From positions 224,001 through 288,000 of the forward strand of contig CAWDVP010000006.1 in NCBI GenBank assembly GCA_963805945.1: a stretch of 64,000 bases of DNA, in the 5' to 3' direction. The notes below the pieces were generated by a model that made no database searches, was not told where the DNA came from, and saw nothing but the letters and a program-made list of their open reading frames with translations. A program made the position numbers and the translations under genes. Source of the stretch: Vulcanimicrobiota bacterium (GTDB taxonomy: Bacteria; Vulcanimicrobiota; Vulcanimicrobiia; Eremiobacterales; Eremiobacteraceae). Below, piece by piece: positions 4,579-57,400 of this stretch; the stretch's first letter is position 1, and each line of letters begins with the position of its first letter.

Positions 4579-4602
4579 CGGTCGAGAAAACTCGACCGCT
4601 CC
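4579..4602 (-). repeat. REP-like hairpin, family A variant (GGAGCGGTCGAG-TTTT-CTCGACCG)
   Basis: Perfect 8-bp arms CGGTCGAG/CTCGACCG with the GGAG tail seen in other copies. Confidence 0.75.
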
Positions 4603-4608
4603 ACACAC

Positions 4609-4632
4609 AAGGGCCGGCACATGCCGGCCCTT
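4609..4632. terminator. Hairpin between convergent genes, probable terminator
   Basis: AAGGGCCGGCA-CA-TGCCGGCCCTT followed by CTTT, between the stops at 4568 (+) and 4642 (-). Confidence 0.6.
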
Positions 4633-4641
4633 CTTTCCACC

Positions 4642-5311
4642 CTACGTCGCCACCGCCAGCATACCGATCAAGTCCGCCAGCGCTTTGATGATCACGTCCG
4701 GCGCGACGAGCTTGCGTCGGATACGGCTTGTCCTCGAGGTCCGCCCAGCACGCCACCATGCCGGCGGCTTTCGCGCCCACGACGTCGGTCGCCGGCTCGT
4801 CGCCGACGTACATCGTAGTCTCGATCTTCATCCCCAATCGCGCGGCTGCCACCTCGAATGCACGCGGGTCCGGCTTGAAGAACCCGATCTCTTCGGACAC
4901 CACGACCGAGCCGGTGAAGCCGATGAGATCCGCCTTGAGGTACTGCAGTTCGGTCCAGCCGTTGGTGAGGATGCCGACCGGCACGTCGCGCTCGCGCAGC
5001 TCGCGCAGCATCGCCTCTGCGCCTTTCATCGGCGTGACGCGCCGCGGCGCTTCTTGCAGCGCTGCAAGACGGAAGGTGGCCGGGATCTCGCCGAGCTTCG
5101 ACTCAGGACAGCCCCAGGCGCGGAACGATTCGATGAGCGCGTCGTTCAGCCGGACTTCGCCGGAGCGGAACAGCGCGAGCGCCGTGGCGATCGCGGCCGC
5201 CGAGGGCGGCGTCGGGCACGTCTCTTTCGCGAGCTCCGTGAGCACGTCAAGTTCGAGATGGCGGTCGAAGCCCAGCGTGTGGTCGAAATCGAACATGACG
5301 GCCGAGATCAT
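4642..5311 (-). CDS. HAD-superfamily hydrolase (frameshift near 3' end)
   Basis: Motifs FDFDHTL, LTNG, KPDP, YVGDEPATDVVGA; the natural C-terminus (PDVIIKALADL...TAG at 4642) is in another frame. Confidence 0.85.
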
Positions 5312-5369
5312 GGCCTCGGCTTACGAGAAGGCCGCGGCGCGACCTTCAAGCCGCGCTTCACGGAAGACA

Positions 5370-5398
5370 TAGGGGCCGATCTAAAGATCGGCCCCTAC
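5370..5398 (-). repeat. GTAG REP-like hairpin, family B
   Basis: Minus strand GTAGGGGCCGATCT-TT-AGATCGGCCCCTA, located between rpoC and the HAD gene. Confidence 0.85.
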
Positions 5399-5429
5399 AT
5401 CAGGCCGCGTCGAGTTAGCGAGCCGTCGG

Positions 5430-9490
<4,061 letters not shown>

Positions 9491-9506
9491 ATACACCGTC
9501 TAAAGT

Positions 9507-13354
<3,848 letters not shown>

Positions 13355-13394
13355 CAGTTGTGGCTTACACCTTTAGCGCTGCGCGACCTAATAC

Positions 13395-13418
13395 GGAGCG
13401 GTCGATGGCGCTCGACCG
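13395..13418 (+). repeat. REP-like hairpin, family A variant, in the rpoB leader
   Basis: GGAGCGGTCGA-TGGCGC-TCGACCG. Confidence 0.7.
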
Positions 13419-13431
13419 TTTTTCTTGTTCT

Positions 13432-13457
13432 GTAGGGGTCGATCTTCAGATCGACCC
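13432..13457 (+). repeat. GTAG REP-like hairpin, family B, in the rpoB leader
   Basis: GTAGGGGTCGATCTTCAGATCGACCC. Confidence 0.88.
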
Positions 13458-18118: not shown

Positions 18119-19381
18119 TTAGGGGGTGCGCGGTGGCACTCCTTCACGCGGCTCGCGCACGAATGTGAGCGCGAGTCCGCCCAGCACCATCCATACCGCG
18201 ACGAGCCCGAAGAGCGAGCGATAGCCGATGCCGAGATCGCCGGTGACGGCGCCCAAGTGGTCCACCAGCAGGCCGCCGATGATGGGCGCGGCGACCTGCG
18301 GCGCCGACGCGCCGATGTTCCACAGCGCCATGAGCGCGCCCGCGCGGCCCGGCGGCAAGAGATTGCACGCCAGCGCCCAGTCCACCGAATAGTACGCGCC
18401 CCAGCCGATCCCGAGGAACACCGACAGCACCGCGACCGGCGTCAGCGAGGTGGCGAACGCGACCGTGAGCGCGGCCGCGACGATCAGCGCGAGCGATATA
18501 TAGATGATGGATTTCTTCGATATCCGGTCGCCGAGCAAGCCCGCCGGCACGGTGCCGACGAGCGAGCATCCGACCATGAGCAGCAGCAGCGTGAGGCTGG
18601 TGGCCTGATAGCGATCGATCTTGAGGGCGAAGCGCAGATAAAAACCGAGGAACGGCAGGATCGAATACAGGCCCGCGCTCACCAGGGTGCGCGAACCGAT
18701 GAGCCACCAGAAGCTCGCGCGCAGCGGCCAGGCGGTCAGCACGGGCACGGCCTCGGGCACATCTTCCCTGCGCTCTTTGACGCCGAACACGGTGACCAGC
18801 AGCGCGGCGAGCATGATCACCGCGATCGCCGTGACGAGCCGCAAGAACCCGCTCGTGTACATCTCGGGCGTGACGTCCGGACCCGGCTGGTGGACGACGA
18901 GCTTCGCGAGCAGCAGGCCTCCCGCGGTGCCCGCCAAGCGCATCAGACCCATCACCGCGGAGGCGCTGCCCTGCGCGCTCTTGGCGACGCGGTCCGGGAT
19001 GAGCGCTTGGTACGCGCCACCGGCGATGTTGAGCAGCTGCAGCACGACGAAGGCGACCAGCACCGCCAAGAACGACGGCGCGAGCGCGAACATGTAGAGG
19101 CCGGCGAAGTTGATGAGCGTGCCGACGATGATGAACGGCATGCGCCGGCGCACGATGTCCGACCAGCGGCCGGCGCCGTACTGGATGACGATCGCGATGA
19201 GCGCCCCGCAGCCGAGCAGAATCGCCGACGCGCGGCCGTAGAACGTCGGCGGCACGAAGCGGGCGATCTCCGCTTGCAGCGCTGCGCCGAGCAGCGCGGC
19301 CCATTGCAGCTCCCAGGCGAACCAGTAGAACGACAGCGCGAACGGGTTCGGCGTCTTGACGCCTGGAGCGGTCGAATTCAT
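18119..19381 (-). CDS. MFS transporter
   Basis: About 12 hydrophobic segments; motif A GRWSDIVRRR and GLLGDRISKK. Confidence 0.88.
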   Translation of the reverse strand: MNSTAPGVKTPNPFALSFYWFAWELQWAALLGAALQAEIARFVPPTFYGRASAILLGCGALIAIVIQYGAGRWSDIVRRRMPFIIVGTLINFAGLYMFALAPSFLAVLVAFVVLQLLNIAGGAYQALIPDRVAKSAQGSASAVMGLMRLAGTAGGLLLAKLVVHQPGPDVTPEMYTSGFLRLVTAIAVIMLAALLVTVFGVKERREDVPEAVPVLTAWPLRASFWWLIGSRTLVSAGLYSILPFLGFYLRFALKIDRYQATSLTLLLLMVGCSLVGTVPAGLLGDRISKKSIIYISLALIVAAALTVAFATSLTPVAVLSVFLGIGWGAYYSVDWALACNLLPPGRAGALMALWNIGASAPQVAAPIIGGLLVDHLGAVTGDLGIGYRSLFGLVAVWMVLGGLALTFVREPREGVPPRTP

Positions 19382-19388
19382 TCGACCG
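19365..19388 (+). repeat. Family A REP-like hairpin spanning an ATGA stop/start overlap
   Basis: GGAGCGGTCGAATTCATTCGACCG; on the minus strand the apex reads GAATGAATTC, containing the TGA of the upstream gene and the ATG of the MFS gene. Confidence 0.88.
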
Positions 19389-20130: not shown

Positions 20131-20183
20131 GCCCGCCCCGTTGGCGCATGCGCGGCCGAATCCATTCGAGCCCGCGTGCTCGT

Positions 20184-20207
20184 GGAGCGGTCGAATTTAT
20201 TCGACCG
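20184..20207 (+). repeat. Family A REP-like hairpin containing the stop codon of the methyltransferase gene
   Basis: GGAGCGGTCGAATTTATTCGACCG; TAA at 20197-20199 on the minus strand; a degenerate second copy lies at about 20152-20172. Confidence 0.88.
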
Positions 20208-21417: not shown

Positions 21418-21435
21418 GCTTCTGGAGCGGCCGCT

Positions 21436-22035
21436 TCAGTCGGCCGAAGCCGGAATACGGATCGTATCCACGCCGCCGGACTCCCGCAGACACGAGACGA
21501 TCCCGTCGGCCGACGCGGCATCCGCGACGACCACGAGCGCGATGCCGTGATGCTCGATCTCATCGGCGATCCGATATGCGGCGTGCGTCGAGCGTTGCGG
21601 CGACAAGCCGCTGCCCAGCGTCGCGCCTGCCAGCGCACCAAGCACGAAGCACAGCAGCACGTCGGCGAGCACGCGATAGTGCGGGTCGGTGTCGACGAGC
21701 GTGAAGTTCGGCACATACGCGACGACAAGTCCGGCGGCCGCGCCCATCAGACCGCCCATCACGCCGCCGAGATTGATACCGGCCGCCGCGTCCGCAGCAG
21801 AGGCGAGGCCCGGCGCTCCGGCCAGGGGATCGATCGGATCGATATCCGAGCGGACGCCGAACTCGGCCGCAAGCACGCTCACGTCCTCCGCGCCTGACGG
21901 CTGCGCGCCCAGGCCGACCGCCGACGGCGCGACGCCGAGCGCGAGCAGCGCGCACAACGCGGCGTGCGCGGTGGCGCGATCGCGCGCGGCGCACGCGACG
22001 AACACGGAAGGGGCGACTGAAGGTCCCTGTGTCAA
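21436..22035 (-). CDS. Hypothetical membrane protein (Gly-rich TM hairpin)
   Basis: Two Gly/Ala-rich hydrophobic segments flanked by short alpha/beta regions. Confidence 0.6.
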   Translation of the reverse strand: MTQGPSVAPSVFVACAARDRATAHAALCALLALGVAPSAVGLGAQPSGAEDVSVLAAEFGVRSDIDPIDPLAGAPGLASAADAAAGINLGGVMGGLMGAAAGLVVAYVPNFTLVDTDPHYRVLADVLLCFVLGALAGATLGSGLSPQRSTHAAYRIADEIEHHGIALVVVADAASADGIVSCLRESGGVDTIRIPASAD

Positions 22036-22083: not shown

Positions 22084-22374
22084 GTGGAAAAACCTGGAGT
22101 GCTCGTGGGCCGATCCGTCGTCGTCCGCTCGAATGCGGACGAGCCGGAATACTACACGGACGTCCATCGGGCGCGCGTCGGCCATGAGGGCCGCGTCCAT
22201 GCGATCGTGCCGACAGACGATCGCGCCAATCCGCTCGTCAAGGTCGGCTTTGATGCTGGCACCCAGATCGTCTTCTACCGGCTCGCCGATCTGCAAGTCG
22301 ACCCCGATGCCGGGCTCGATCTCTCGAAGAAGCACGGCGTGCGCGGCAGCCACTTACCGAAGGGCGCCGGCTAA
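22084..22374 (+). CDS. Small hypothetical protein
   Basis: 96-aa ORF with normal composition that fills the gap between two minus-strand genes. Confidence 0.55.
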   Translation: MEKPGVLVGRSVVVRSNADEPEYYTDVHRARVGHEGRVHAIVPTDDRANPLVKVGFDAGTQIVFYRLADLQVDPDAGLDLSKKHGVRGSHLPKGAG

Positions 22375-23196
22375 CCACTCCAGACCGTCGACCACGCGCG
22401 GCCCGTTGCGCTCTAGGATGGAATCGTTGGGCGGGCGCAGCACCTTGCCGTCGCGCACGGCGCGCAGACTGCGCCACGGTTCGCTCGCCCGCACCGCTGG
22501 GCCGAAGTGCGTGTCATCCGAGACGATGAGGACGTCGGGATCCGCTTTCAGGATCGCCTCCGCCGTGAGGCTCGGGTACGCCTCATCGACGTCCCCGGCG
22601 ACGTTGATGCCGCCCGCGAGGCTGATGAGATCGTTGAGATAGGAGCGACCGCCGGCGGTGAATCCTGGCAACCCCAACAGATAGAGCACCGTCGGCTTGT
22701 GCCGCCGATCCTTGGTCTGTGCGGCGACGCGTTCGATGCGACGCCGTAATGCCGCTGCCAAGACCACGCCCTTCTTGATGCTCCCGCAGGCCTTGGCGAC
22801 GCCCGCGATGTCCGCGTAGAGGTCGCCGATATTCCGGTTCGGCAGATACACGACCGGCACGCGCAGCCGTAGTGCGACAGCGGACCCTTCATTCTCTTGA
22901 TCGTGCAAGGCGACGACGACGGTGGGCCGCAGCTGCGCGATCCGCTCTAGGTCCACATGCGCGAGATCGCCGACGTGCGGCAGCGCTTTGGCGGGCGCGG
23001 GATAGTCGTCGTAGGTCGTGTCGGCGACGAGATGGCGGCCGCAGTCGACGGCATACGCGATCTCGGTGAGCGACGGCGCCAGCGAGATGACTCTGATCTT
23101 ACCCGCTTGGTCTGTAGCGGTCGAATTTATTCGACCGTGAGATGCGCACCCGCCAACGAGCGCGCACGCAGCCGCGGCGATGAGGAAGCGTCTCAA
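22354..23196 (-). CDS. btuF: Cobalamin ABC transporter substrate-binding lipoprotein (BtuF-like)
   Basis: Lipobox LVGGC, RVISLAPSLTEI, DLERIAQLRP, AEAILKADPDV, RNGPRVVDGLE; last gene of the riboswitch operon. Confidence 0.85.
   Translation of the reverse strand: MRRFLIAAAACALVGGCASHGRINSTATDQAGKIRVISLAPSLTEIAYAVDCGRHLVADTTYDDYPAPAKALPHVGDLAHVDLERIAQLRPTVVVALHDQENEGSAVALRLRVPVVYLPNRNIGDLYADIAGVAKACGSIKKGVVLAAALRRRIERVAAQTKDRRHKPTVLYLLGLPGFTAGGRSYLNDLISLAGGINVAGDVDEAYPSLTAEAILKADPDVLIVSDDTHFGPAVRASEPWRSLRAVRDGKVLRPPNDSILERNGPRVVDGLEWLAGALR
23114..23137 (+). repeat. Family A REP-like hairpin in-frame in btuF
   Basis: GTAGCGGTCGAATTTATTCGACCG; encodes GRINSTAT just after the lipidated Cys. Confidence 0.9.
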
Positions 23197-26934: not shown

Positions 26935-26996
26935 CGCCCAGCTCCCTTATCGCGAAGAGCTATGCAGCGGCGCGACCTTGCGGCCGCGCGCATCTG

Positions 26997-28715: not shown

Positions 28716-29570
28716 ATGCAGTATTTCGAACCGAACTTCGTCGAGGAAGCCCTCGCCTTGCTCGAACAGCTCGGTCCGAGCGCGCGCGTGCTCGCCGGCG
28801 GCACGCTGCTCGGTCCGGAGGTGCGCGCAGCGTCCGGATCGACGAGCGCGATCGTCAACATCAAACGCATCTCCGAACTGCGCGATATCGACTTCGATGG
28901 CCAGGCGCTGCACATCGGCGCGCTCGCGACGGCCCGCGATCTCGCCGAGAACGATTTGGTCCGGCGGCACGCGCCGTTGCTCTCGCTGGCCGCCGCCTCG
29001 CTGGGTGCGACGCAATTGCGCAACGTCGCCACCATCGGCGGCAACCTCTGCTCGGGCCATCACGCGGCGGATCTCGGCGCTGCGCTGCTCGCCTGCGACG
29101 CGCGGTGCGTCATCGCGAACCTCATCACGGGGCCGGCGACGATGCCGGTGGCGGAGTTCTTCCGGCCCGGCGGGCACGCTCTCGAAGAGGGCGCGATCCT
29201 CACCGCGATCGAGATCCCGGCGAGCTCGGCGCACGTCTCCTATGTGAAGATGCAGACGCGCCGCGCGTTCGAGATGGCGATCATCGCGGTGGGCGTCGTC
29301 CTGGCGCATGACTCAGTACGGATCGCTCTCGGCGGCGCCGCGCCGACGCCGGTGCGTGCCGTCCACGGCGAAAAGACGTGGACCGACGGTCGAATACATT
29401 CGACCGCTCCAGACGCGGTAGGGCGTGAGGCCGGTCGCGTCGCCGCGGCGAAGGACTGCGATCCGGTCACCGACCACCGCGCCTCAGCCGAATATCGTCG
29501 GCATCTCGTCGCTGTGCTCACGGAGCGCGCGCTGCTCGAGGCTGCCGCCGCGCACGGATCTGGGCGCTGA
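28716..29570 (+). CDS. Xanthine dehydrogenase/CoxM-family FAD-binding subunit
   Basis: VLAGGT, HIGALAT, QLRNVATIGGNL, DHRASAEYRRHL. Confidence 0.9.
   Translation: MQYFEPNFVEEALALLEQLGPSARVLAGGTLLGPEVRAASGSTSAIVNIKRISELRDIDFDGQALHIGALATARDLAENDLVRRHAPLLSLAAASLGATQLRNVATIGGNLCSGHHAADLGAALLACDARCVIANLITGPATMPVAEFFRPGGHALEEGAILTAIEIPASSAHVSYVKMQTRRAFEMAIIAVGVVLAHDSVRIALGGAAPTPVRAVHGEKTWTDGRIHSTAPDAVGREAGRVAAAKDCDPVTDHRASAEYRRHLVAVLTERALLEAAAAHGSGR
29387..29410 (-). repeat. Family A REP-like hairpin in-frame in the FAD subunit gene
   Basis: Plus strand CGGTCGAATACATTCGACCGCTCC; encodes GRIHSTAP. Confidence 0.88.
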
Positions 29571-36183: not shown

Positions 36184-38355
36184 GCCGCCCATGAGGTCGG
36201 CGTCCTTGGCCCAGCGCGGCGGCTTGCCGAAGCCGGTCGCAGACGCGCTCACAAGGCCTCGCGACAGACCGTAGCGCAGCGCGCGCCGCTCTTCCGCCAG
36301 ATAGAGCTGCTTGGCCTCGAAGCGCGCGTAGTACCACGCAAATTTCGCCGTCTGCGACGCACCGGGCGCGACGTTCTCGCGCACGATGAGGCCATAGGTG
36401 CGCGAGAACGCCATGGCGCGGGACACGTAGATGCGCGGGAAGCGCTCGTGTGCGAGGCCGATGACGAACACGTGCGGCCAGCGCTCGCCTTTGGCCGCGC
36501 TGATCGTGTCGCAGGCGATCGCCTCGCGCGTGCGCAGCGCCGGCCGCAGCAACGCCATGTCGTCTTCCAACGCCCTCACGAGCTCGCTCACACCGCGCTG
36601 CGCGCCGCTCGCGCCGGCCGCGGCGAAGGCTTCGAGCACCCGCTGCGCATCATCGAGCAGGCGCGGGCGGCGGTGCTGTGGCGCCGACTCCCAGCGCCGC
36701 ATGAAGCCGCCTGCCCGCGCGAGCCCGGCGATCTGCGCGGCGGGCGAGGCCCCAGCGAACCGCGTGCGCCACGCCTCGAGCTGCGCGCGGAAACGCGCGA
36801 CGGTCTCGCGCGTCGCCTCCGGCAGCCGCTTGTCCACCGTCCCCTCGAGCATGTTGCGCGCGAGCGCGGTGCGTTGACGCCCCTTGCCCGGTCGCTTGCG
36901 TTCGTCGTTGACGCCGACTTCGAGCGCCAGCTGCGTCACCGCAGTCGTATCCTCGCACAGCGCGTAGATGCTCGCGTCGGAGAGACCGAGCAGCGGCGAC
37001 GCGAGCACGCGCAGCATGTGCTCGTGGTCGTAGGGGTCGTCGACGACCGCCGCGAGGGCGAGCCAGTCGGCGATATCGTTGGGCGTCTCGAAGCGCGCCA
37101 GCGGCGCGTCGACCGGCAATCCTCGCCGCTGCGAGCAGATCGGCATACACGGCCGCCGCGTCATCGCTGCGCGTCAGCAGCGCGATGTCGCTCGGCGCCG
37201 CGCCTTGGCGGAGCAGATCCTCGATCGCCGCCCCGAGATGCTCGACCTCTTCCGCCTCGTCAGAGAAGCGCTGCGCACGCGGCTGGGGCGACGCGGGGTT
37301 CGGCGCGAGCTCGATGCGCTGCGTCGGCTCCATCGCGGACAGCACCGAACGGCGGCCATGGAGCCCGTCGACCGCCGCGTCCGGCCAGCCCGCGATGGTG
37401 ATGCCTCGCAGCCCGGCGGCGCTCAGCGCGATGAGCAGATCGCCGACGCCCGCATGCGCGTCCTCCGCGTCGTCCACCATCACGTGCGCGATGCTGCGCG
37501 CGATCGCCCGAGCACGAGCGGCCGTCTTCGACCAGCCAGCGCAGGCACTCATCGACGATATCCTCGTCGCTGGCCAGCGGCGCGCTCCGCGCGACCGTGA
37601 GATACTCGCGATACAGCCGCGCGAGCAGGATGCCGAGATCGCGCTCGGCGCGCTTTTGCGATTGCAACACGTCGGGGCCGGCGCGCAGCGCCTCTCTGCC
37701 GCGTTTGCTGACGCGCCCGAGCACTGCCGGGTCGCGCGCCTTGGCGAGCGCCGCCTCGACCTCGTCGCCGTAGAACGCCTGCAGCCCGGCGACGCTGCCG
37801 CGCTCGAACTCCTCCGGGCTCACCCGCGAGCCGCGCAATTGCGTCATGAGCGCTGCGGCTTCGTCCAAGAACTTGTCCGGCCGGCTCAGGAACGGGATGT
37901 TCAGATCGAGCTCGCCGTCGCCCAACTCGGGCCACGTCAGGTCGAGCAGCCCGGCGGCCGCTTCGCGGACGATCTCGCGGGCGGCGGCAGGACCGCCGTT
38001 GCGCAGGTCCGGACGCACGCCGGCCAATGCATAGTGCGAGCGCAGCAGCTGCAACAAGTGATTCGGCGCAGTGTCGACGCGGATGTTGTCAGGCGCGTCG
38101 AACGACGCAAGGGCGCGGCGAAATGCGCGCACGCCCGACTCGTGCGAGCAGATGACGAGCAGAGAACCCGAGCTTCGCTCGGGCACTACAGGATAACGTG
38201 GCGGCGAGGTGCGCGGCGCGCGCGGCGAGCGCCGCGGTCTTGCCTGAGCCGGGCGGGCCGGTGATCTGCAAGACGCCGTCCTGCGGTGCGGCGACCGCCG
38301 CGTTCAGCATCGCGGCTCCCGGTGCCGTATCCGACGGCGCTCGCTCAACGCGCAA
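36175..38355 (-). CDS. Divergent UvrD/PcrA/AddA-like SF1 helicase (frameshifted)
   Basis: Walker A GPPGSGKT, Walker B-like VMVDDAED, DIALLTRS, motif V TISAAKGERWPHVFV, motif VI EERRALRYGLSRG, spread over several frames. Confidence 0.75.
38167..38189 (-). repeat. GTAG REP-like hairpin, family C, within the helicase gene
   Basis: Minus strand GTAGTGCCCGAGC-GAA-GCTCGGG, identical to the copy at 54912-54934. Confidence 0.88.
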
Positions 38356-39959
38356 AGACGCGCTCGCGATCGACAGGCTGTTCGCGGCAGCCGCGCGCGT
38401 ACGCGCAGTACGCGCACGGCGGGTCGACGCCGGCTTCGAAATGGGCGACGCCTTGTTTCGTGAGCATGTCGGCGCGCGCGAGCAGCACGTCGACGGAGGC
38501 CGCCATGTCGGCCGGCGAGGCGACGCCGCGCACCACGCCGCTGCGCGCCGCCCGCTCCACGACCGCCTTGCCCTGGTCGTCGACGATGTCGAGCGCGAGC
38601 ACCCACACCGGATCGCGCGGGTCGCGCAGCGAGATGAGCGCGAGCCGGCCGACGTCGTCGCCCCGCATGCGCCGCACCGTATAGTACAGCGCGAGCTGCC
38701 CCTCCTCGCCGCGGCGGATCTTCCTTATGTACTCGTCGGGATTCTCATCGATGCGGCCGGTCTTGTAATCGTAGATCGTCACCGCACCGCCTGCCGCCGG
38801 CCGGTCGATGCGGTCGATGTAGCCGACGAACTCGTGGCCGCCCATCGACCAGCGCTGCAGTGCTTCGACCGACTCGACCTCCATCGGATGATCGTCCGCC
38901 TCTGCTTTGAGCCAACGCGCGTAGTGAGCGGCGACCGCATGCGCCTTGAGGCGGCTCACCTCGAACTCGAGGCGCGAGGCGAACTCCTCGCGATTGCGCT
39001 CGAAGGCGAAGTCGAGCTGTGAGTGCAGCCGTTCGAGGATCGCGTTGCCGGAATACTCCGCGGGCACGCGGATCTCGCGATGCAGCGCCTCGAGCGCTTC
39101 GTGGAAGACCTTGCCGTAGGTCGCCGCCGCAGAGCCGTCGTCTTCGACCGCATCGCAGAGGTACTCGAAGAACCAGCGGCGCGGGCACTTCACGAAACCG
39201 TTGAGCCGCGAGGCGGAAAACGCCATCGCCGGCGCCACCAGCGGGCGCGGTTCTTCCGGTATCGGCCAGGCCCACGCTTCTTCTACTTCGATTTCTTCGG
39301 TCGCGTCGCTGAAGTGCCGCGCCAAAGCTGCGTGTGCCGGCGCGGTGACCGTGATCTGAAGCGCCGCGCCACGCGGCTCGAGCGCGCCTGCATCCGCGCC
39401 CAGCGCATACGCGAGCGAGCCTGGACCCGCCGGACTGCTCGCCGCTTCCGCGAAGACGATCTCAAGCGTCTCGTCGCCGGCCTCGTCGTCGCCGCACGAC
39501 AGCACGCGCAGGCCGGCCGGCGCTTGCAGCGACTGCGCGACCCAACGCGGCAACACGACGCCGCTTTTCCCGGAGCGCCGAGCGATTTCGAATGCTTCCT
39601 CGAGGGTTGCCGCTTGTCGTTGCGAGGGTTGATCTGAAGATCGATCGGGCCGACCTGAAGGTCGGCCCGCTACATGGGCCGTCGGCGCGAGAACCATGAG
39701 AAGACGGGCGAGAGCGCTGTAAGGCAGCGTTCTCGTCGGCGACCGCAGCCGCCAGAGCGAGCTCGTCGATGTCGGCGCGCGCGCACGCGTCCGCCAACGC
39801 GCAGATCCCGTCGACGAACGCCGCGTCGCTGCGCAGCTCGAGCGGCCACGGCCAGTCGCCGGCGGCAAGGGCGCGCACCAGGGCCGCGCGGCAACCGCCG
39901 CCCGAACTCGAATCCATGGTCGCGTGCTTAGACGTCGCGGAGGCTGCGTACTGCGGCAT
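38345..39959 (-). CDS. PD-(D/E)XK RecB/AddB-type nuclease with 4Fe-4S staple (frameshift near 39720)
   Basis: FSASRLNGFVKCPRRWF, GKVFHEALE, GYIDRID...IYDYKTG, QLALY, CAYCAYARGC. Confidence 0.85.
39626..39673 (-). repeat. Tandem family B REP-like hairpins in-frame in the nuclease gene
   Basis: Minus strand GTAGCGGGCCGACCT-TC-AGGTCGGCCCG followed by ATCGATCT-TC-AGATCAACCC; encodes VAGRPSGRPDRSSDQP. Confidence 0.82.
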
Positions 39960-48577: not shown

Positions 48578-48600
48578 GTAGCGCTCGAGCGAAGCTCGGG
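48578..48600 (+). repeat. GTAG REP-like hairpin, family C variant, upstream of panB
   Basis: GTAGCGCTCGAGC-GAA-GCTCGGG. Confidence 0.8.
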
Positions 48601-48621: not shown

Positions 48622-49467
48622 ATGCCAGACAAGATCACCGCGCCGGCAATCCGGTTGCGAAAAGGCGGCAGCAAGATTGCCGTGATCACCGCATACGACG
48701 CGCCCTCGGCGCGCATCGCCGACCGCGCCGGCGCCGACATCATCCTGGTCGGCGATTCGCTCGGCAACGCTGTGCTCGGCTACGACGACACGTTGTCGGT
48801 GACGGTCGATATCATGGTCCGCCACACCGCGGCGGTCACGCGCACCAAACCGCGCGCGCTCGTCGTCGGCGACATGCCGTGGCTGAGCTACCACCTCTCC
48901 CCTGCCGACAGCGTCCGCAACGCCGCGCGCTTCATCGTCGAAGGCGGCGCCGGAGCGATCAAGCTCGAGGGTGGACGCAAGCGGTTGCCGATGGTCGAAG
49001 CGATCCTCGCGGCCGAGATACCGGTGATGGGTCATCTCGGGCTGACGCCGCAATCCGTGCACGCCATGGGCGGCTTCAAGGTGCAGGCGAAACTCGCCGA
49101 GGCGGCCGCCGAGCTGGTGGACGACGCACGCGCGCTCGCCGAGGCCGGCGTGTTCGCCGTCGTGCTCGAGGGCATCCCCGATATCGTCGCCGCGCGCGTC
49201 ACGCGCGAGATCCCCGTGCCGACGATCGGTATAGGCGCGGGACCGCAATGCGACGGTCAAGTGCTCGTGTTCCACGACGTGCTGGGTTTGAGCGCGGGCA
49301 CCCCGCCGAAGTTCGTGCGGCGCTACGCGTCCCTGGGCGATGAGGCGGTTGCGGCGGTCAAGCACTTCTTCGATGACGTCCGCTCCGGCGAGTTCCCCAA
49401 CGAAGCCGAGACCTATCACATGCCGGACGCCGACGCGCAGGAGTTCCAAGCCGGCCGACGCGGTTGA
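48622..49467 (+). CDS. panB: 3-methyl-2-oxobutanoate hydroxymethyltransferase
   Basis: TAYDAP, LVGDSLG, GDMPW, KLEGG, MGHLGLTPQSV, GIGAG..CDGQVLV.HD. Confidence 0.96.
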   Translation: MPDKITAPAIRLRKGGSKIAVITAYDAPSARIADRAGADIILVGDSLGNAVLGYDDTLSVTVDIMVRHTAAVTRTKPRALVVGDMPWLSYHLSPADSVRNAARFIVEGGAGAIKLEGGRKRLPMVEAILAAEIPVMGHLGLTPQSVHAMGGFKVQAKLAEAAAELVDDARALAEAGVFAVVLEGIPDIVAARVTREIPVPTIGIGAGPQCDGQVLVFHDVLGLSAGTPPKFVRRYASLGDEAVAAVKHFFDDVRSGEFPNEAETYHMPDADAQEFQAGRRG

Positions 49468-50423
49468 AGATCCTCTTCTGCGACGAGGGCTACTCGGAGG
49501 CGCGCCGGCAGCTGGCTGCGCTCGTGCCTGCGCATGAGATCGCGTGGTGCGCGCGCGACGCGGTCGCCAGGCACCTCGGCGGCGTCGACGTCATCGTGCC
49601 CTACATGGCGGCGATAGACGCGCATATCATCGGGACCGGCTCGTTCGGTCTCGTCCAGCAGTTCGGCGTCGGTTTGGAGAGCGTCGACGTCGAAACCGCG
49701 ACGCGCGCAGGGGTGTGGGTCGCACGCGTGCCGAGCGGGCAGACCGGCAACGCCGAATCGGTGGCCGAGCATGCGGTTCTTCTCGTGCTCATGCTCGCCC
49801 GTCATACCTCTGATGCCCGCAGTGCCCGAGCGAAGCTCGGGGAGCCATCGGGCCTTGCGCTTTTGGGCAAGACGGCGTGCATCGTCGGCGTGGGCGCGGC
49901 CGGCGGCGCGCTCGCGACTCGTCTCACCGCGTTCGGCATGCGCCTCATCGCGGTGCGCAAGAACGCCGCCGGCACACCGCCGCCGGGTGTCCGCTTCGAA
50001 AAGGTCTACCCGCTGGCTCAGCTCTCCGACGCGGTACGCGAGGCGGACTTCGTCGTCATCACAGCGCGCTATGAACCAGACGCGCATCATCTCGTGGATC
50101 GCCGTGTGCTGGAGTCGATGCGCCAAGGCTCGTTCATCGTCAACGTCGCGCGAGGCGGTTTCGTCGACCGCGCGGCGCTCGAGGCAGCGCTGCGCTCCGG
50201 GCGTGTCGCCGGTGCCGGTCTCGATGTTGTCGAAGGCGAACCGCTCGATCCTGGTGATCCGCTCTTGTGTTTGAACGTTATCGTCACGCCGCATATCGCG
50301 GGAGTGACTGACGTGTCCTATGCCGGCATCGCTCGCGTGGTCGGCGAGAACATCCGGCGTTATGAGAGCGGCGAAGCTCCCTTGCACGCGGTCAACAAAC
50401 CGCCCAGACCACGCGGCAGATGA
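49464..50423 (+). CDS. D-isomer-specific 2-hydroxyacid dehydrogenase
   Basis: NAESVAEH, GKTACIVGVGAAG, VNVARGG, AGLDV..EP, TPHIAG. Confidence 0.9.
   Translation: MKILFCDEGYSEARRQLAALVPAHEIAWCARDAVARHLGGVDVIVPYMAAIDAHIIGTGSFGLVQQFGVGLESVDVETATRAGVWVARVPSGQTGNAESVAEHAVLLVLMLARHTSDARSARAKLGEPSGLALLGKTACIVGVGAAGGALATRLTAFGMRLIAVRKNAAGTPPPGVRFEKVYPLAQLSDAVREADFVVITARYEPDAHHLVDRRVLESMRQGSFIVNVARGGFVDRAALEAALRSGRVAGAGLDVVEGEPLDPGDPLLCLNVIVTPHIAGVTDVSYAGIARVVGENIRRYESGEAPLHAVNKPPRPRGR
49819..49841 (+). repeat. Family C REP-like hairpin in-frame in the dehydrogenase gene
   Basis: GCAGTGCCCGAGCGAAGCTCGGG; encodes RSARAKLG. Confidence 0.82.
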
Positions 50424-52716: not shown

Positions 52717-53538
52717 ATGCCTGTGGTGCGTCGCGGTCCGGGGCGGTCCCTGCGCGCGCTCATCGTGGTGATCGGGCTCGCAGTGCCGGCGTTGCCGTTG
52801 CGCGCCGACGACGCGGTGCCCATCGCGCTGCATCTCATCCCAGGGACCTACGTGACGAGCGAGTCGCTCGTGCATCTCGTGACGATCGACATCAACAAGA
52901 CGCTCAAGGCCATGGCGGCCGGCCGCGCGGAGGATAAGACGGTGCTCGAAGACCGCGCGATCGTGCTCACCGTCCAAGCCGCCGGTGCGGTGAGCGAGAT
53001 CGAGACCAACACGCGGCGCTACGGCGGCAATTCGAAGGACACGGACACCAAGGAGCGCACCAACTCGTACCAAGGGACCATCGCGCCGGACGGCGTGCGC
53101 ACGCCGCCGCAACCCGTCCTCGAGGATGCGGGCGACGGCGCGCTCGACCAGCTGCCGGACATCCCGCTCGCGCCCGGGCAGCAATGGACGTTCACGCGGC
53201 CGATCAAGACGGACCGAGACCTCGGTCAGGGCACGATGACCTACACGGACAAGGTCGTGCGCGTCGACGATCGAGCCGGCCACAAGATCGCGACCATCGA
53301 GGTCACCGGCGTGGGGCGCATCGACCCCGCGTCGGATCTCGCGGCGCATGGCTTCAAGACCGCGGAGATGAAATTCGGCGGCACCGCCGAGTTCGACACC
53401 ACGGCCGGCTTGCCGGGCGTGCAGCATTACACCGGCAAGGTCACCTGGACGACGGTCGTGATGATGCAACACATCCCGGTCACGTTCAACGACGCCTACG
53501 ACGCGACGCCGCTCGTCCCGAGACCGCCCAAGACTTGA
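52717..53538 (+). CDS. Secreted hypothetical protein (DUF6263-like)
   Basis: Signal peptide; LPDIPLAPGQQW and GTAEFDTTAG motifs. Confidence 0.62.
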   Translation: MPVVRRGPGRSLRALIVVIGLAVPALPLRADDAVPIALHLIPGTYVTSESLVHLVTIDINKTLKAMAAGRAEDKTVLEDRAIVLTVQAAGAVSEIETNTRRYGGNSKDTDTKERTNSYQGTIAPDGVRTPPQPVLEDAGDGALDQLPDIPLAPGQQWTFTRPIKTDRDLGQGTMTYTDKVVRVDDRAGHKIATIEVTGVGRIDPASDLAAHGFKTAEMKFGGTAEFDTTAGLPGVQHYTGKVTWTTVVMMQHIPVTFNDAYDATPLVPRPPKT

Positions 53539-54365
53539 CCGCGTTCGCCGACCTCACCGAGAGCCCGCGGCTGACCGCGGCGCTGCTCGGCGCGCTCGAT
53601 AGCGCGGGTCTGCGCGATATCGCATCCGCGTGTGTGGTCGATATCGGATCGTCCGCGTTCGCCCATTGGCGCGGCGACGAGGATATCTATCCTGCGAGCG
53701 TCATCAAGATCGCGCTGATGGCGGAAGCATATCGGCGCTACGCGACGGGCGATATCACGCCCGACGATCGCGTCGTCATCGAAGCGCGCAATCTCACGCC
53801 GACCGCCGAGGCGACGCCGCTCGTCGCCGGCTACGAGGCGCGCCTCCGCGAACTCGTCGAGCTCATGATCGCGCGCTCGGACAACATCGCGACCAATCAG
53901 CTCATCGATGTGCTGCGGCGCGAGCGGGTCACCGCCGCGATGCGCGCGCTTGGTCTCGAAGGATTTCTGCTGGGCCGCAAGCTCTCCGGCGCCGATCCGC
54001 TCATCGACGATCCGGAGATGACGGGCCGCAATTCGATGAGCGCGATGAACGCGGCTCGCTTGCTGCATCTGATCGCGACGGACGCCGTTCCCGGCGCGGC
54101 AACGCAACGCGACATCCTCGCCCGCTGCGTGGACGACGACAAGCTCGCGCCTGGTCTGCACGAGAGCGACCGCTTCATGCACAAGACGGGAGAGACGAGC
54201 ACGGTGAGCCACGACGCGGGCATCGTGATGACCGCGCGCGGCGATCCCTACGTCGTCGTGCTCTACACGACGCCCGAACCCGCGCCCGGCGGCGGGGATG
54301 CGTCGCACGTGAACCCGCGCATGGTGCGATGGATGAGCGCGCTGCGGCCGGCTTTGGTGCGATAG
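53535..54365 (+). CDS. Class A beta-lactamase-like serine hydrolase
   Basis: SxxK (ASVIK), SDN, HKTG, HDAG; TTG start overlaps the upstream TGA. Confidence 0.85.
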   Translation: MTAFADLTESPRLTAALLGALDSAGLRDIASACVVDIGSSAFAHWRGDEDIYPASVIKIALMAEAYRRYATGDITPDDRVVIEARNLTPTAEATPLVAGYEARLRELVELMIARSDNIATNQLIDVLRRERVTAAMRALGLEGFLLGRKLSGADPLIDDPEMTGRNSMSAMNAARLLHLIATDAVPGAATQRDILARCVDDDKLAPGLHESDRFMHKTGETSTVSHDAGIVMTARGDPYVVVLYTTPEPAPGGGDASHVNPRMVRWMSALRPALVR

Positions 54366-54413
54366 GTCACACGCGTGCCAGGGTGCCGAGGGGCAGAGGC
54401 GAATGTATGATTT

Positions 54414-57400
54414 GTGCCTGACACCCCTATCGTCGTCACCCTTCCTGAAATGGGCGAATCCGTCGCCGAAGGCACCGTCACGAGCTGGCGCAAGCGGCTC
54501 GGCGATGAGGTGAAAAGCGGCGAAGCGCTCGTCGACGTGACCACCGATAAGGTGGACGTCGAGGTGCCGTCGCCCGCGGCCGGCCGCGTTTCGAAGATCC
54601 TCGCGCAAGAGGGCGCCACCGTCAAAGTCGGTGCACCGCTCGCGGAGATCGACCCGTCCGCCAACGGCGCGGCCGAAACCCGACCGCCCAAAGCCGCAGA
54701 GGCGAAATCCAGCGCAGCACCCGCGACGAAGATCGAGCAAGCCCGACCGGCGCAACGCCCGACACAGGAGCCGGCGACGTCTCGCGACGCGTCACCGCTC
54801 GCACGCCGCGCCGCCGCGATCCGCGGCGTCGATCTTGCGAAAGTGGCCGGCAACGGCCCCGGCGCGACGATCCGTCGCGATGACGTGCTGAACGGCGAGG
54901 CGGCGCCCGCCCCCGAGCTTCGCTCGGGCACTACGGACACCGCCCCCGTTGCCAAACCGCCCGCGATCGCGGCGCCGCCCCGCGTGACGCTGCCCGCTGC
55001 GGTTCCCACGGCAGCGACGCCGCAAGCAGTCGAACAAACTCGACCACAACAAACGCCGCCCGACAAACCGGTCGAACAAGTTCGACCGCTACAGCCCTCT
55101 TCAAGAGCCGAGGCCGCGCCGCCGCTTCCCCCGGGCGCGACAGCAACGCCGATCAAAGGCCCTGCCGCGTCGCTCGTCACGTATATGGAAGAGAGCTTGT
55201 CGATCCCCACCGCGACGAGCTTCCGCACGATGTCGGTCGGACACGCTTGAAGTGCGGCGCCGCGATCTCAACGCGGCGCTGCGGACCGCCGGCCGCGACG
55301 AGAAAGTCTCCTTCACCCATCTGATCGGTTTTGCGCTCGCGCAGGCGACGCATCAGGTCCCCGCGATGACGGCGGCGTTTCGGCGCGAAGACGGACAACC
55401 GACGCGGGTGGAGCAGGGCTGCAACCTCGGCCTCGCCGTCGACATGCAGCGTAAAGACGGCAGCCGTTTTCTCGTGGTGCCGGTGATCCGCGACGCGGAC
55501 AAGCTCGATTTCGCGGCGTTCCACAAGACCTACGAATCGCTCGTCGCGCGTGCGCGCGGCAACACGCTCACACCCGCGGATATGGCGGGCGCCAGCATCA
55601 CGCTGACCAATCCGGGCGGCATCGGCACCGTCGCCTCCGTGCCGCGGCTCATGCCGGGCCAAGGCGCGATCATCGCAACCGGCGCGATCGGCTATCCGCC
55701 CGGCTTGGGCTCCGTGCCCGAATCGTCGTTGCGCGCCATGGGCGTCGCCAAAGTCATGACGCTCACCAGCACGTACGACCATCGCGTCATCCAGGGCGCG
55801 CAGTCAGGCGAGTTCTTGCGCCGCATCGAAGAGCTGCTCAACGGCGCGGACGGCTTCTACGACGCGCTCTTCGTCAGCCTGGGCCTGCCCAGGCCGACCG
55901 CCGCGCCGAACCTCGAAACGCGCGCGCCGGGGACCGAGCCCTCGACGGTCAGTCCGGACGTCATCCGTGCCGCCACCGCCGCCGCCTCGCTCATCGCCCG
56001 GTACCGCACGTTCGGCCACACGGCGGCCACGCTCGATCCGCTCGGCGAGCCGCCGGCAGGCGATCCGGCGCTCGATCCGGCCAGCCTCGGTTTGACACCA
56101 CCGCTCATGGAGTCGGTACCCGCGTCGGCGCTGCGCCTCCATCTGCCCGGCAACACGCTGGCGGAGCTGCTGCCGCGCTTGCGTGAGACATATTGCTCGA
56201 CCATCGCCTATCAGATGGAGCACATCTCCAGCCACGAGCAGCGCGGCTGGCTGCGCGAGCAGATCGAGTCAGGCGCGCACACACGGCCGCTCACCCGCGA
56301 GGAAGCGCTCAAGCTGCTCGACGCGCTCACCAGCGTCGAAGTCTTCGAACGCTACTTGCGCAAGTCGTTCCTCGGCCAGAAGACCTTCTCGATCGAGGGT
56401 CTGGACGCGATGATCCCGATGCTCGAAGAGATGGTCGACCTCATGGCGGCCGACGGCATCGGCGAAGTCGATCTCGGCATGGCGCACCGCGGCCGGCTCG
56501 CGGTCATCACGCACGTCGTCGGACGGCCGTTCGAGGAGGCGCTGCGCGAGTTCGAGCTCGCCGACAAGCGCGGCGACACCGACCTGCCGGGCGATGTCAC
56601 GGGCGACGTCAAGTACCATCAGGGCGCCGAAGGCGTGCGCCAGTCGCCAGCGGGCAAGAACGTGCGCGTCGTGCTGGCGCACAACCCTTCGCATCTCGAA
56701 GCGGTGAACTCGGTCGTCGAGGGCCGCACGCGCGCCTCGCAGACCGACCGCTCGCGCAACATCGCGACCCAGGACACGCGCAAAGCCGCCGCCGTGCTGA
56801 TCCATGGCGATGCGGCGTTCCCAGCGCAAGGCAGCGTCGCCGAGGTGCTCAACATGCAGTCGCTGCCCGGCTACACTACCGGCGGCACCGTCCACATCAT
56901 CGCCAACAACCAGATCGGCTTCACCACGACGCCCGGCGAGGGCCGTTCCACGCGTTACGCGAGCGATCTCGCCAAAGGCTTCGACATCCCCATCATCCAT
57001 GTCAACGCGGATGACATCGAAGCGTGCATCGCAGCGGTCCGGCTGTCGGTGGGCTTCCGCCGCACCTTCAAGCGGGATATCCTCATCGACGTGGTCGGCT
57101 ACCGGCGCTCCGGCCACAACGAGACCGACGAGCCCGCGTACACCCAGCCCATCATGTACGAGCGCATCAAGAACCATCCGACCGTGCGCGAGATCTTCGC
57201 GCGGCGTCTGGTGGAGCACGGCACGATCGGCGAGGACGATGTCGCGCGCCTGCTCGAAAACGCGCAGCGGCGTCTCGCCGGCGCGCATGCCGCCGTCAAG
57301 GCGGGCGCCGGTGCAGCCGCTGCGGAGCCTTCGAGCGCCCCGGCGAGCGATGGCGCGGCGGTCGACACGCGCATCTCGGCCGCCACCCTGCGCGCGCTCA

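What the first reader, a model, noticed from the sequence alone, without database searches (positions are those of the whole stretch)
4579..55092. Three families of G(T/G)AG-tailed REP-like hairpins that sit inside proteins and gene junctions
Seen in sequence: about 17 clear 23-29 bp hairpins in 64 kb, plus degenerate copies. Family A is G(G/T)AGCGGTCGAAT-nn-ATTCGACCG (4579, 5623, 5667, 13395, 19365, 20184, 23114, 29387, 55069). Family B is GTAG(G/C)GGGYCGAYCT-TY-AGRTCGRCCC (5370, 9465, 13432, 39646). Family C is GTAGTGCCCGAGC-GAA-GCTCGGG (38167, 48578, 49819, 54912). The arms co-vary: GAAT/ATTC vs GAAC/GTTC vs GAG/CTC in A, and GCCGATCT/AGATCGGC vs GTCGATCT/AGATCGAC vs GCCGACCT/AGGTCGGC in B. 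The conserved unit is therefore the hairpin rather than a peptide. More than half of the copies lie within unrelated CDSs, in either orientation and different frames ([39 protein letters not shown]), mostly in linkers and tails. Established: a 5' GTAG plus palindrome is the REP signature recognised by RAYT/TnpA(REP) HUH transposases; REPs are normally extragenic, and in-frame palindromes are known mainly from Rickettsia RPEs. Inference: this lineage has a REP system that routinely colonises coding sequence and creates new protein segments. No RAYT gene is present in this window.
Basis: partly seen in the sequence, partly recalled or inferred. Interest (0 to 1): 0.9.

Follow-up and report, generated by a model that had tools for sequence, protein, structure and literature searches.

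The report
REP hairpin repeats, some inside genes
These are three families of small mobile-type DNA hairpins (REP elements) in an uncultured soil bacterium of the Eremiobacterota group, and about four in ten of them sit in frame inside real genes, a known but uncommon habit of such repeats.

Summary
All 17 hairpins are at the stated coordinates, and each family is far above chance (A: 9 sites against 0.01 expected; C: 4 against 0.00). The stems co-vary.

They fit GTAG-tagged REP elements: a perfect 7-11 bp palindrome directly behind a shared ATG(T/G)AG tag. Family A also fills two Candidatus Eremiobacteraeota MAGs that are 69-89% identical to the window.

Gene context is less extreme than claimed:
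- 7 of 17 copies are truly intragenic and in frame: RpoC acidic tail (2), BtuF-like lipoprotein tether, CoxM-like flavoprotein loop, 2-hydroxyacid dehydrogenase loop, and the E2 linker of 2-oxoglutarate dehydrogenase (2).
- 2 straddle gene ends.
- 8 are extragenic.

Orthologue alignments show the peptides are lineage-specific. In relatives, at least 11 of 140 copies lie inside or between Pfam domains.

No RAYT gene was found in the window or in about 537 kb of relatives, so the mobilising enzyme is inferred only.

Intragenic GTAG REPs are already published (PMC3733652). This is therefore a new member of a known kind, found in an undescribed phylum.

The parts
4579..4602 (-). Family A copy with a GAG/CTC stem variant. 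Extragenic, between the convergent NHL-repeat gene (ends 4568) and the HAD hydrolase gene.
   Evidence: 3 mismatches; 35.1 bits. The HAD coding signal stops near 4700. Pfam HAD covers residues 2-189 of the 248-aa ORF.
5373..5398 (-). Family B copy, intergenic between the HAD start (5311) and the rpoC stop (5430).
5541..5792 (-). RpoC C-terminal tail segment with five same-strand, same-frame family A units. Two are intact: 5667-5690 and 5622-5645, both read GAVEFIRP. Three are decayed: 5769-5792 GPVELARP, 5592-5615 GAIEFMGP, 5541-5564 RAIERARP.
   Evidence: The ORF 5430-6758(-) carries RNA_pol_Rpb1_5. The conserved RpoC core ends near query residue 260-275. Relatives have acidic tails, and the closest one, P0001 (75% identical), lacks these units. 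The codon score is positive on both sides.
9465..9490 (-). Family B copy, intergenic between the rpoB stop (9507) and the rpoC start (9426).
13395..13457 (+). Direct pair of family A (13395-13418) and family B (13432-13457), upstream of rpoB. Extragenic.
   Evidence: Both are absent from the orthologous spacer of L075.
19365..19388 (+). Family A copy at a gene junction. Its loop ATGA supplies the TGA stop of the NTP-transferase ORF (19378-20130, -) and the ATG of the MFS transporter ORF (18119-19381, -).
   Evidence: Orthologues L075 and L019 keep the ATG but have different, partly similar sequence there.
20150..20207 (+). Direct pair of a decayed A unit (20150-20176) and an intact A unit (20184-20207). 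The loop TAA of the intact unit is the stop codon of the THUMP-like methyltransferase ORF (20197-21417, -).
   Evidence: The whole block of about 59 bp is missing in the orthologous junction of L019.
21424..21446 (+). Decayed A-like unit (GGAG plus a GGCCG-type stem), between two minus-strand ORFs.
   Evidence: (18.3 bits, E 0.017).
23114..23137 (+). Family A copy inside the BtuF-like periplasmic binding lipoprotein gene (22354-23196, -). It is read GRINSTAT, directly after the lipobox Cys.
   Evidence: (Peripla_BP_2 36-254). An identical 27-nt stretch sits at the same site in L019, whose flanks are about 70% identical. 11 of 120 orthologues, counting the window's own, carry an A-type peptide at this place.
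29387..29410 (-). Family A copy inside the CoxM-like FAD-binding subunit gene (28716-29570, +), read GRIHSTAP in a loop of the C-terminal domain.
   Evidence: Solved homologues align on both sides. The 87%-identical orthologue P0152 has GRINSTAP. 13 more distant orthologues have a 4-residue gap there.
38167..38189 (-). Family C copy, between the PD-(D/E)XK nuclease gene stop (38345) and the start of the next minus-strand gene. Extragenic or 5' leader.
   Evidence: no coding signal over the element.
39626..39673 (-). Direct pair of a decayed B unit (39626-39646) and an intact B unit (39647-39673). Extragenic, between the Fic gene and the PD-(D/E)XK gene.
   Evidence: (no coding signal from 39560 to 39720).
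48578..48600 (+). Family C copy, intergenic, 11 nt after a stop (48567) and 22 nt before the panB start (48622).
49819..49841 (+). Family C copy (tag GCAG) inside the D-2-hydroxyacid dehydrogenase gene (49464-50423, +), read SARAKLG just before the NAD-binding glycine motif.
   Evidence: Solved homologues align on both sides. It is shared with the 87%-identical P0272. 15 other orthologues have unrelated sequence there that is 2 residues longer, and the right arm overlaps the conserved LGE codons.
54912..54934 (-). Family C copy in the Pro/Ala-rich linker of the E2 part of the 2-oxoglutarate dehydrogenase gene (54414-55250, +), read PELRSGTT.
   Evidence: (lipoyl 8-79 and E3-binding 126-159 upstream; the acyltransferase domain downstream).
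55027..55092 (-). Two family A units in the same E2 linker: decayed 55027-55050 (AVEQTRP) and intact 55069-55092 (PVEQVRP). The GAAC/GTTC stem variant removes the TAA that the usual loop would give in this frame.
   Evidence: The orthologous linker of L035 holds two perfect A units and a partial one at other positions, inside a single 1344-aa ORF.

Best explanation
These are REP elements, that is, repetitive palindromic DNA of the GTAG-tagged class. Three sequence families share one layout: a 5' ATG(T/G)AG tag followed directly by a perfect palindrome (A 9+2+9 nt, B 10-11+2, C 7+3).

The host lineage is an uncultured Candidatus Eremiobacteraeota bacterium. Most copies sit just outside genes, often as short direct arrays.

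A sizeable minority survive inside genes. Family A is 24 nt long and open in 5 of 6 frames, and insertions persist only at permissive sites: disordered tails, inter-domain linkers, the lipoprotein tether and surface loops. There they are translated into 7-9 residue segments, mostly in the hydrophilic frame GR(I/M)NSTA(P/T).

Shown here:
- the repeat families and their excess over chance;
- the hairpin and its co-variation;
- presence in related genomes;
- the gene context of each copy;
- the lineage-specific nature of the peptides;
- gain and loss between species.

Inferred, not shown:
- that the copies are spread by a RAYT-type (TnpA-REP, HUH Y1) enzyme acting on the folded single strand;
- that the in-gene copies are passengers filtered by selection rather than functional parts.

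The confidence of 0.8 is for the REP classification and the gene contexts. For the RAYT step alone I would give about 0.5.
For: Anatomy:
- Perfect hairpins sit behind a conserved tag. At the two positions before the tag, A occurs in 88 of 140 and T in 114 of 140 family A copies. The tag G is in 139 of 140, and its second base is T in 74 and G in 66. B and C show the same ATGTAG.
- Published group 3 REPs are likewise perfect palindromes directly preceded by GTAG (PMC8266576, passages read).

Copy number:
- 17 copies in 64 kb against 0.01 or fewer expected per family.
The 80 listed rows comprise 78 from two Eremiobacteraeota MAGs, one Bryobacteraceae and one Actinoplanes contig.
- 131 distinct A copies lie in about 537 kb of those MAGs.

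Hairpin constraint: 13 double-change cells, reached by 0 of 500 shuffles.

DNA unit rather than peptide: the same unit lies in non-coding spacers and is read in four different frames in relatives.

Intragenic status:
- Homology flanks the copy on both sides for CoxM, the dehydrogenase and E2.
- The lipoprotein copy has a signal peptide with lipobox before it and the binding domain after it.
- The acidic RpoC tail is shared with relatives.

Lineage-specific peptides.

Turnover:
- The 20150-20207 block is absent in L019, and 13395/13432 are absent in L075.
- 9 of 15 mappable A sites are shared between the two MAGs and 6 are not.

In relatives, 11 of 140 Eremiobacteraeota copies lie inside or between Pfam domains, in LarC, MutS2, the E2 linker (2), TilS, an RDD protein (2), PMT, PBP1, an amidase and MetE. 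85 of 142 copies have no supported spanning ORF.

Precedent for intragenic GTAG REPs and for REP ends giving stop codons: PMC3733652 (section 15 read).
Against: - No RAYT or Y1 transposase domain was found in 89 window ORFs or in 340 ORFs of the related loci (48, 88, 110 and 94 ORFs). A recalled-motif screen also found nothing. Only about 537 kb of two genomes was available.
- Nearly half of the A tags are GGAG (57 against 68 GTAG among the 131 copies in relatives). Position 2 changes nearly abolished cleavage in one tested RAYT system, although another tolerated them (PMC8266576, passages).
- Close neighbours are direct repeats in 22 of 24 pairs, unlike the inverted dimers that predominate in published families (PMC3733652, Table 1 text).
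- Two intragenic copies replace ancestral sequence instead of adding 8 codons, and one arm overlaps pre-existing similar sequence. Cut-and-paste insertion does not predict this.
- The copy at 23114 is identical over 27 nt to its orthologue, although the flanks are about 70% identical. This hints at maintenance or re-insertion rather than neutral passengers.
Confidence: 0.8

Rival explanations
1. The hairpins are kept inside and beside genes because they work as nucleic-acid signals. They might act as RNA stabilisers or pause sites, or as binding sites for a DNA-binding protein. Their spread would then owe more to gene conversion or template switching between copies than to a transposase.
For: - The copy at 23114 is identical over 27 nt to its orthologue, amid flanks about 70% identical.
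- A-type peptides sit at the same lipoprotein site in 11 of 120 orthologues. This includes GRVNSTAT, which fits the compensated GAGT/ACTC stem variant.
- Double changes keep the stem.
- The copy at 55069 keeps its stem while losing the in-frame TAA.
- Some copies replace ancestral sequence and overlap it by one arm.
- No RAYT was found.
Against: - Decayed copies are common (5541, 5592, 5769, 20150, 55027), so many copies are not maintained.
- Host sites are unrelated proteins and spacers with no shared function.
- 6 of 15 orthologous sites differ between two related species.
- Co-variation among copies of a palindrome can also arise from copying of variant masters, without selection on each copy.
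Confidence: 0.15
2. The palindrome is a pair of inverted DNA uptake-type or recombination-type words (ATTCGACCG and its complement) enriched by biased uptake or repair. It would not be a transposable unit.
For: From recall, not tested here: uptake sequences of Neisseria and Haemophilus occur as inverted pairs after genes, and within genes in favoured frames. The strong frame bias of intragenic copies (15 of 22 read as GR.NSTA) resembles that pattern.
Against: - The unit is asymmetric. A conserved ATG(T/G)AG tag lies on one side only, and the same tag is shared by three families with unrelated stems.
- The spacing of the two arms is fixed at 2 nt.
- Half-sites on their own were not seen among the model hits.
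Confidence: 0.03
3. The repeats are artefacts of an error-rich long-read metagenome assembly.
For: The window carries many frame breaks in essential genes: fusA at least 3, rpoC at least 5, rpoB at least 4.
Against: - The same elements occur in two other assemblies.
- REP-encoded peptides occur in proteins from several independent public sources, namely P0152, P0272, P0392-P0395 and others.
- The copies are perfect palindromes with orderly variants.
Confidence: 0.01

Closest known systems
GTAG-tagged REP families with intragenic members (Di Nocera, De Gregorio and Rocco 2013, PMC3733652; most intragenic copies in Opitutus terrae)
   Same: - Short palindrome behind a GTAG-type tag.
- Several families in one genome.
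- The tag is degenerate at its second or third base in some families.
- Clusters occur.
- Copies abut genes and supply stop codons.
- Some copies lie wholly inside ORFs of known proteins, including DNA repair proteins. Here these include MutS2 in L009.
   Different: - A different phylum and different stem sequences.
- The tag extends to ATG(T/G)AG, with GGAG nearly as common as GTAG.
- Close neighbours are direct rather than inverted.
- 7 of 17 copies are intragenic in this window. I could not compare rates, because the published counts are in a figure and a supplement that I did not read.
Group 3 REPtrons, such as the Stenotrophomonas maltophilia REP with TnpA-REP (PMC8266576)
   Same: A perfect palindrome directly preceded by the tetranucleotide. 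The single-stranded hairpin plus tag is the substrate layout.
   Different: No cognate tnpA-REP gene was found in the DNA available. Cleavage was not tested.
Rickettsia palindromic elements (RPE)
   Same: Palindromic repeats inserted in frame in functional genes, adding peptide segments at tolerated sites (as summarised in PMC3733652, Background).
   Different: From recall, RPE-1 type elements are about 100-150 bp and encode 30-50 residues. These units are 23-27 bp and encode 7-9 residues. The tag also differs: the short RPE-4 and RPE-6 are filed with CGTC repeats in PMC3733652.
REPINs / BIMEs (inverted REP doublets)
   Same: Built from REP units. They are dispersed and long-lived.
   Different: The defining inverted pair is missing. 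Only 2 of 24 close pairs are inverted.

Membership tests
REP (GTAG-tagged repetitive palindromes) | Short (about 20-40 bp) palindromic unit able to form a stem-loop | tested here: met
   Units are 23-27 nt with stems of 7-11 bp. Single-stranded DNA folds at -7.4 to -13.9 kcal/mol. 94.2% of cells pair, with 13 double changes.
REP (GTAG-tagged repetitive palindromes) | Conserved GTAG tetranucleotide at the 5' foot of the hairpin | tested here: met
   B and C carry GTAG. In A of the relatives, 68 copies have GTAG, 57 have GGAG and 6 have other tags, out of 131. The last two tag bases (AG) are near-invariant. GGAG is a departure at position 2.
REP (GTAG-tagged repetitive palindromes) | High copy number, dispersed over the genome | tested here: met
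   17 copies in 64 kb. The window organism's whole genome could not be counted.
REP (GTAG-tagged repetitive palindromes) | Mainly extragenic, close to gene ends | tested here: inconclusive
   In the window, 8 copies are extragenic, 2 sit at gene ends and 7 are intragenic. In relatives, 85 of 142 have no supported spanning ORF, 23 lie upstream of the first domain in a stop-to-stop frame, and 13 lie inside or between domains; 2 of those 13 are chance hits in other phyla. My own frame classifier called only 58% of random positions coding, so the fractions are rough.
REPtron (REP plus RAYT) | A RAYT / TnpA-REP gene (Y1 HUH transposase, Pfam Y1_Tnp) in the genome, usually flanked by its REPs | tested here: inconclusive
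   None was found among 89 window ORFs or 340 ORFs from about 537 kb of the two MAGs. ORFs longer than 420 aa outside the REP-spanning set were not scanned, and most of each genome was not available.
REPtron (REP plus RAYT) | Cleavage of the single-stranded REP by the RAYT at a CT (or CA) dinucleotide | not testable with these tools
   This is a biochemical assay.
REPIN / BIME | Two REPs in inverted orientation forming a larger hairpin | tested here: not met
   22 of 24 pairs closer than 120 nt are direct repeats. One pair is tail-in and one is tail-out.
Rickettsia palindromic elements | Long palindromic unit (recalled: about 100-150 bp) inserted in frame, in Rickettsia | tested here: not met
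   Units are 23-27 nt, and the host is Eremiobacteraeota by nearest genomes.

The most novel reading that the evidence does not exclude
In this lineage REP hairpins may be long-lived, actively maintained components of coding sequence, not merely tolerated inside genes. On this reading they enter by homology-assisted replacement of existing codons rather than by simple insertion. They are then kept as hairpins for long periods, by selection or by conversion from other copies. Repeated rounds build new protein segments, such as an RpoC tail with five tandem units and the tether of a cobalamin-type binding lipoprotein shared across many orthologues.
Probability: 0.2. Interest if true: 0.7.

Novelty: new member of a known kind. 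Interest (0 to 1): 0.45.

Why it matters
REPs are among the commonest bacterial repeats, yet how they spread and what they cost or give their hosts is still debated.

This window adds a candidate phylum with no cultured model and no published REP description. Full-text searches for Eremiobacter with 'repetitive extragenic' found 0 papers. Nothing relevant appeared among the 10 listed of 71 papers for 'Eremiobacterota' plus 'repeat'.

It also offers unusually clean natural experiments:
- the same element in spacers and in five unrelated proteins;
- orthologues with and without it;
- a series from intact to decayed copies inside one essential protein tail.

This material can be used to measure how long such hairpins last in coding DNA, and whether they are maintained.

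For annotation, it warns that 8-residue motifs such as GRINSTAP or GAVEFIRP in these genomes are repeat-derived. It also warns that open frames running through REPs are often not genes.

Tried and rejected
I used my own hairpin scan instead.
- My first family B pattern required an extra base and missed 2 of 4 copies.
- A codon-usage classifier of gene context proved insensitive. Only 1741 of 3000 random positions were called coding, and it mislabelled 23114, 29387, 54912 and 55069. I therefore relied on Pfam, solved-structure and orthologue alignments for the window copies.
- A regex screen for recalled RAYT motifs found nothing. It is weak evidence.
- Four Pfam scans of locus ORFs found no Y1 transposase.
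- The Rfam gathering search gave no family at any hairpin, only a cobalamin riboswitch.
- The idea that the GAAC/GTTC stem variant exists to avoid an in-frame stop holds for 55069 only. The same variant in L045 is read in another frame.
- The Bryobacteraceae (L038) and Actinoplanes (L064) hits lie inside PspA and histidine-kinase domains. I treat them as chance matches of coding sequence.
- A peptide-level motif, an intrinsic terminator and an assembly artefact were considered and rejected, for the reasons given under the rival explanations.

Full report
**1. The observation**

- Family A is G(G/T)AG + CGGTCGAAT-nn-ATTCGACCG. With up to 3 mismatches it has 9 sites; the 13 rows include 4 opposite-strand re-hits of the palindrome. 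The mean over shuffles was 0.01.
- Family C has 4 sites against 0.00 expected.
- Family B has 4 sites. My first B pattern was too strict and returned only 2 of them.

A blind scan for perfect hairpins listed 40, of which 11 are A or B copies. Ten copies fold as single-stranded DNA at -7.4 to -13.9 kcal/mol. Eight are well beyond shuffled controls and two are weaker.

A covariance model built from 44 A sequences recovered all nine A copies at 31-43 bits. It also pointed to decayed copies at 5541, 5592, 5769, 21424 and 55027. Further decayed units lie at 20150 and 39626.

**2. Whose genome, and are the repeats real elsewhere**

The 80 listed rows comprise 78 from two Candidatus Eremiobacteraeota MAGs, one Bryobacteraceae and one Actinoplanes contig.

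The window is not either MAG. It aligns to four of their loci at 69-89% nucleotide identity. The closest named proteins are also from Eremiobacteraeota. The two hits outside the phylum lie inside PspA and histidine-kinase domains and look like chance.

About 537 kb of unique MAG sequence holds 131 distinct A copies and 9 C copies. Family B was seen only in the window.

GTAG and GGAG tags are about equally common in A, at 68 and 57 of 131.

**3. The hairpin, not a peptide, is the unit**

On 42 distinct A sequences, 94.2% of stem cells pair. Four of nine pairs show changes on both sides, in 13 cells. None of 500 shuffles reached the observed cell count or covariation score, and slid controls pair at 6-43%.

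Recurrent compensated variants are GAGT/ACTC, GAAC/GTTC and GGCC/GGCC-type stems.

The same DNA occurs in non-coding spacers, and in genes it is read in four frames.

**4. Gene context in the window**

Gene calling is hampered because this assembly is rich in indels. Frame tracking shows at least 3 frame changes in fusA, 5 in rpoC and 4 in rpoB, and one each in ggt and acrB. The E2/E1 junction carries one more, an extra G against L035. I therefore judged each copy by homology on both sides.

*Intragenic, 7 of 17:*

(a) 5622 and 5667 lie in the RpoC C-terminal tail.
- The conserved core ends near residue 260-275 of the 442-residue fragment.
- Relatives also have long acidic tails, but the closest one, P0001 (75% identical), lacks the units.
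- With the decayed copies, the tail holds five same-frame units: [40 protein letters not shown].

(b) 23114 lies in a BtuF-like lipoprotein, directly after the lipobox Cys and before the Peripla_BP_2 domain.
- The orthologue in L019 has an identical 27-nt stretch at the same site, although its flanks are about 70% identical.
- 11 of 120 orthologues, counting the window's own, carry an A-type peptide there.
- 5 carry AELRSA, which fits a C-like unit.

(c) 29387 lies in a CoxM-like flavoprotein.
- Solved homologues align on both sides.
- The 87%-identical P0152 has GRINSTAP.
- 13 more distant orthologues show a 4-residue gap.

(d) 49819 lies in a D-2-hydroxyacid dehydrogenase.
- The copy is shared with the 87%-identical P0272.
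- The other 15 aligned orthologues have unrelated sequence that is 2 residues longer.
- The right arm coincides with the conserved LGE codons.

(e) 54912 (family C) and 55069 (family A) lie in the Pro/Ala linker between the E3-binding domain and the acyltransferase domain of a fused E2-E1 2-oxoglutarate dehydrogenase.
- The orthologous linker in L035 holds two perfect A units and a partial one at other positions.
- These sit inside one 1344-residue ORF.

*At gene ends, 2 of 17:*
- The loop ATGA of 19365 gives both the stop of one ORF and the ATG of the next.
- The loop TAA of 20184 is a stop codon.
- The block of about 59 bp at 20150-20207 is absent from L019.

*Extragenic, 8 of 17:*
- 5373, 9465, 13395, 13432 and 48578 lie in plain spacers.
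- 4579, 38167 and 39647 lie in stretches with no coding signal, although chance open frames run through them.

So 'more than half in CDS' is an overcount, but the core claim survives.

**5. Relatives**

For the 142 A and C copies in the loci:
- 85 have no supported spanning ORF.
- 23 lie upstream of the first Pfam domain in a stop-to-stop frame, and many are probably leaders.
- 15 lie in ORFs without a Pfam match.
- 6 lie downstream of the last listed domain.
- 13 lie inside or between domains, of which 11 are in Eremiobacteraeota: LarC, MutS2, the E2 linker (2), TilS, an RDD protein (2), PMT, PBP1, an amidase and MetE.

PurL also carries an inverted pair with more than 350 residues of ORF on either side.

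Among 22 candidate intragenic A copies, 15 are read as GR(I/M)NSTA(P/T), a hydrophilic frame, with the tag strand opposite to the gene.

Close neighbours are direct repeats in 22 of 24 pairs.

Between the two MAGs, 9 of 15 mappable sites are shared and 6 are not. Shared sites are favoured by how the loci were chosen.

**6. What it most likely is**

The anatomy matches GTAG-type REPs, in particular the perfect palindromes directly behind the tag that group 3 TnpA-REP enzymes use (PMC8266576, passages read).

I did not find the enzyme. There was no Y1 transposase domain in 89 window ORFs or in 340 locus ORFs. That covers only a fraction of the genomes, so the RAYT step is inference.

Three things do not fit a plain cut-and-paste passenger model:
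- the abundance of GGAG tags;
- direct rather than inverted neighbours;
- copies that replace rather than add codons, with one arm overlapping older sequence.

The strict identity at 23114 and the wide sharing of the lipoprotein site leave room for maintenance by selection or conversion. The decayed copies in RpoC and E2 show that many copies simply erode.

**7. Comparison with what is known**

PMC3733652 (abstract, passages and section 15 read; figures and supplements not seen) already reports the following:
- GTAG REPs wholly inside ORFs of known proteins in several species, most in Opitutus terrae, often in repair genes;
- REP ends giving stop codons;
- several families per genome;
- degenerate tags.

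It also cautions that N-terminal cases are often misannotation, which I also found.

Rickettsia RPEs are the older in-frame example. No paper in the searched library links REPs with Eremiobacter (one search found nothing closer). Rfam has no family at these sites.

**8. Verdict**

The feature is real and correctly recognised as REP-like. The intragenic habit is real for 7 of 17 copies and recurs in relatives. The phenomenon is already described elsewhere, and the transposase link is untested.

It is a new member of a known kind, of moderate interest. The RpoC tail and the lipoprotein tether are the most instructive cases.

**Left unchecked:**
- whole-genome counts;
- the metagenome and viral collections, which were closed;
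- DNA of most orthologues;
- the supplements of PMC3733652.

Noticed in passing
window 1-13360; also 44087-45707, 55243-55252, 61026-63951: Essential genes are split by frame changes: fusA at least 3, rpoC at least 5, rpoB at least 4, and one each in ggt, acrB and the E2/E1 junction (an extra G relative to L035). Many other long genes are intact. This looks like indel errors of a long-read metagenome assembly, concentrated in the most conserved genes, rather than pseudogenes.
   Followed up: partly
window 26986-27153 (-): A cobalamin riboswitch (RF00174, 99 bits) lies upstream of the FecCD permease, ABC ATPase, TonB-dependent receptor and BtuF-like binding protein operon (22354-26883). The REP-bearing lipoprotein is therefore probably a cobalamin-binding protein.
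   Followed up: no
window 54414-58551; L035 526-4557 (-): 2-oxoglutarate dehydrogenase E2 (lipoyl, E3-binding, acyltransferase) and E1 are fused in one reading frame. In L035 this is a single 1344-residue ORF. In the window it is split by one frame change. The gene order is E2-E1 followed by lpd.
   Followed up: partly
window 4609-4632: A perfect 11-bp G+C-rich hairpin (loop 2) lies between the convergent NHL-repeat and HAD genes, next to the A copy at 4579. It belongs to none of the three families and may be a bidirectional terminator.
   Followed up: no
L027 3996-4895, L047 3953-5380, L069 5494-6291 and others: Because the conserved tag begins with ATG, several genes of the relatives have an open frame starting MERSNLFDR within a REP just upstream of the first domain. 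REP copies may sometimes donate start codons, or mislead start prediction.
   Followed up: no
L046 4001-7386; L069-L071: Family A copies fill nearly every spacer of the secE-nusG-rplK-rplA-rplJ-rplL ribosomal protein cluster in both related MAGs. Some are shared and some are not.
   Followed up: partly
window 13240-13340 (rpoB 5' end, minus strand): The N-terminal extension of the rpoB ORF is a Lys/Ala/Pro-rich low-complexity stretch. It is longer than in L075, which lacks about 20 nt of it in the alignment.
   Followed up: no
L014, L020, L036, L049, L050, L074: Several DUF4760 proteins are encoded in the REP-rich loci of the related MAGs, an unusually frequent small family.
   Followed up: no
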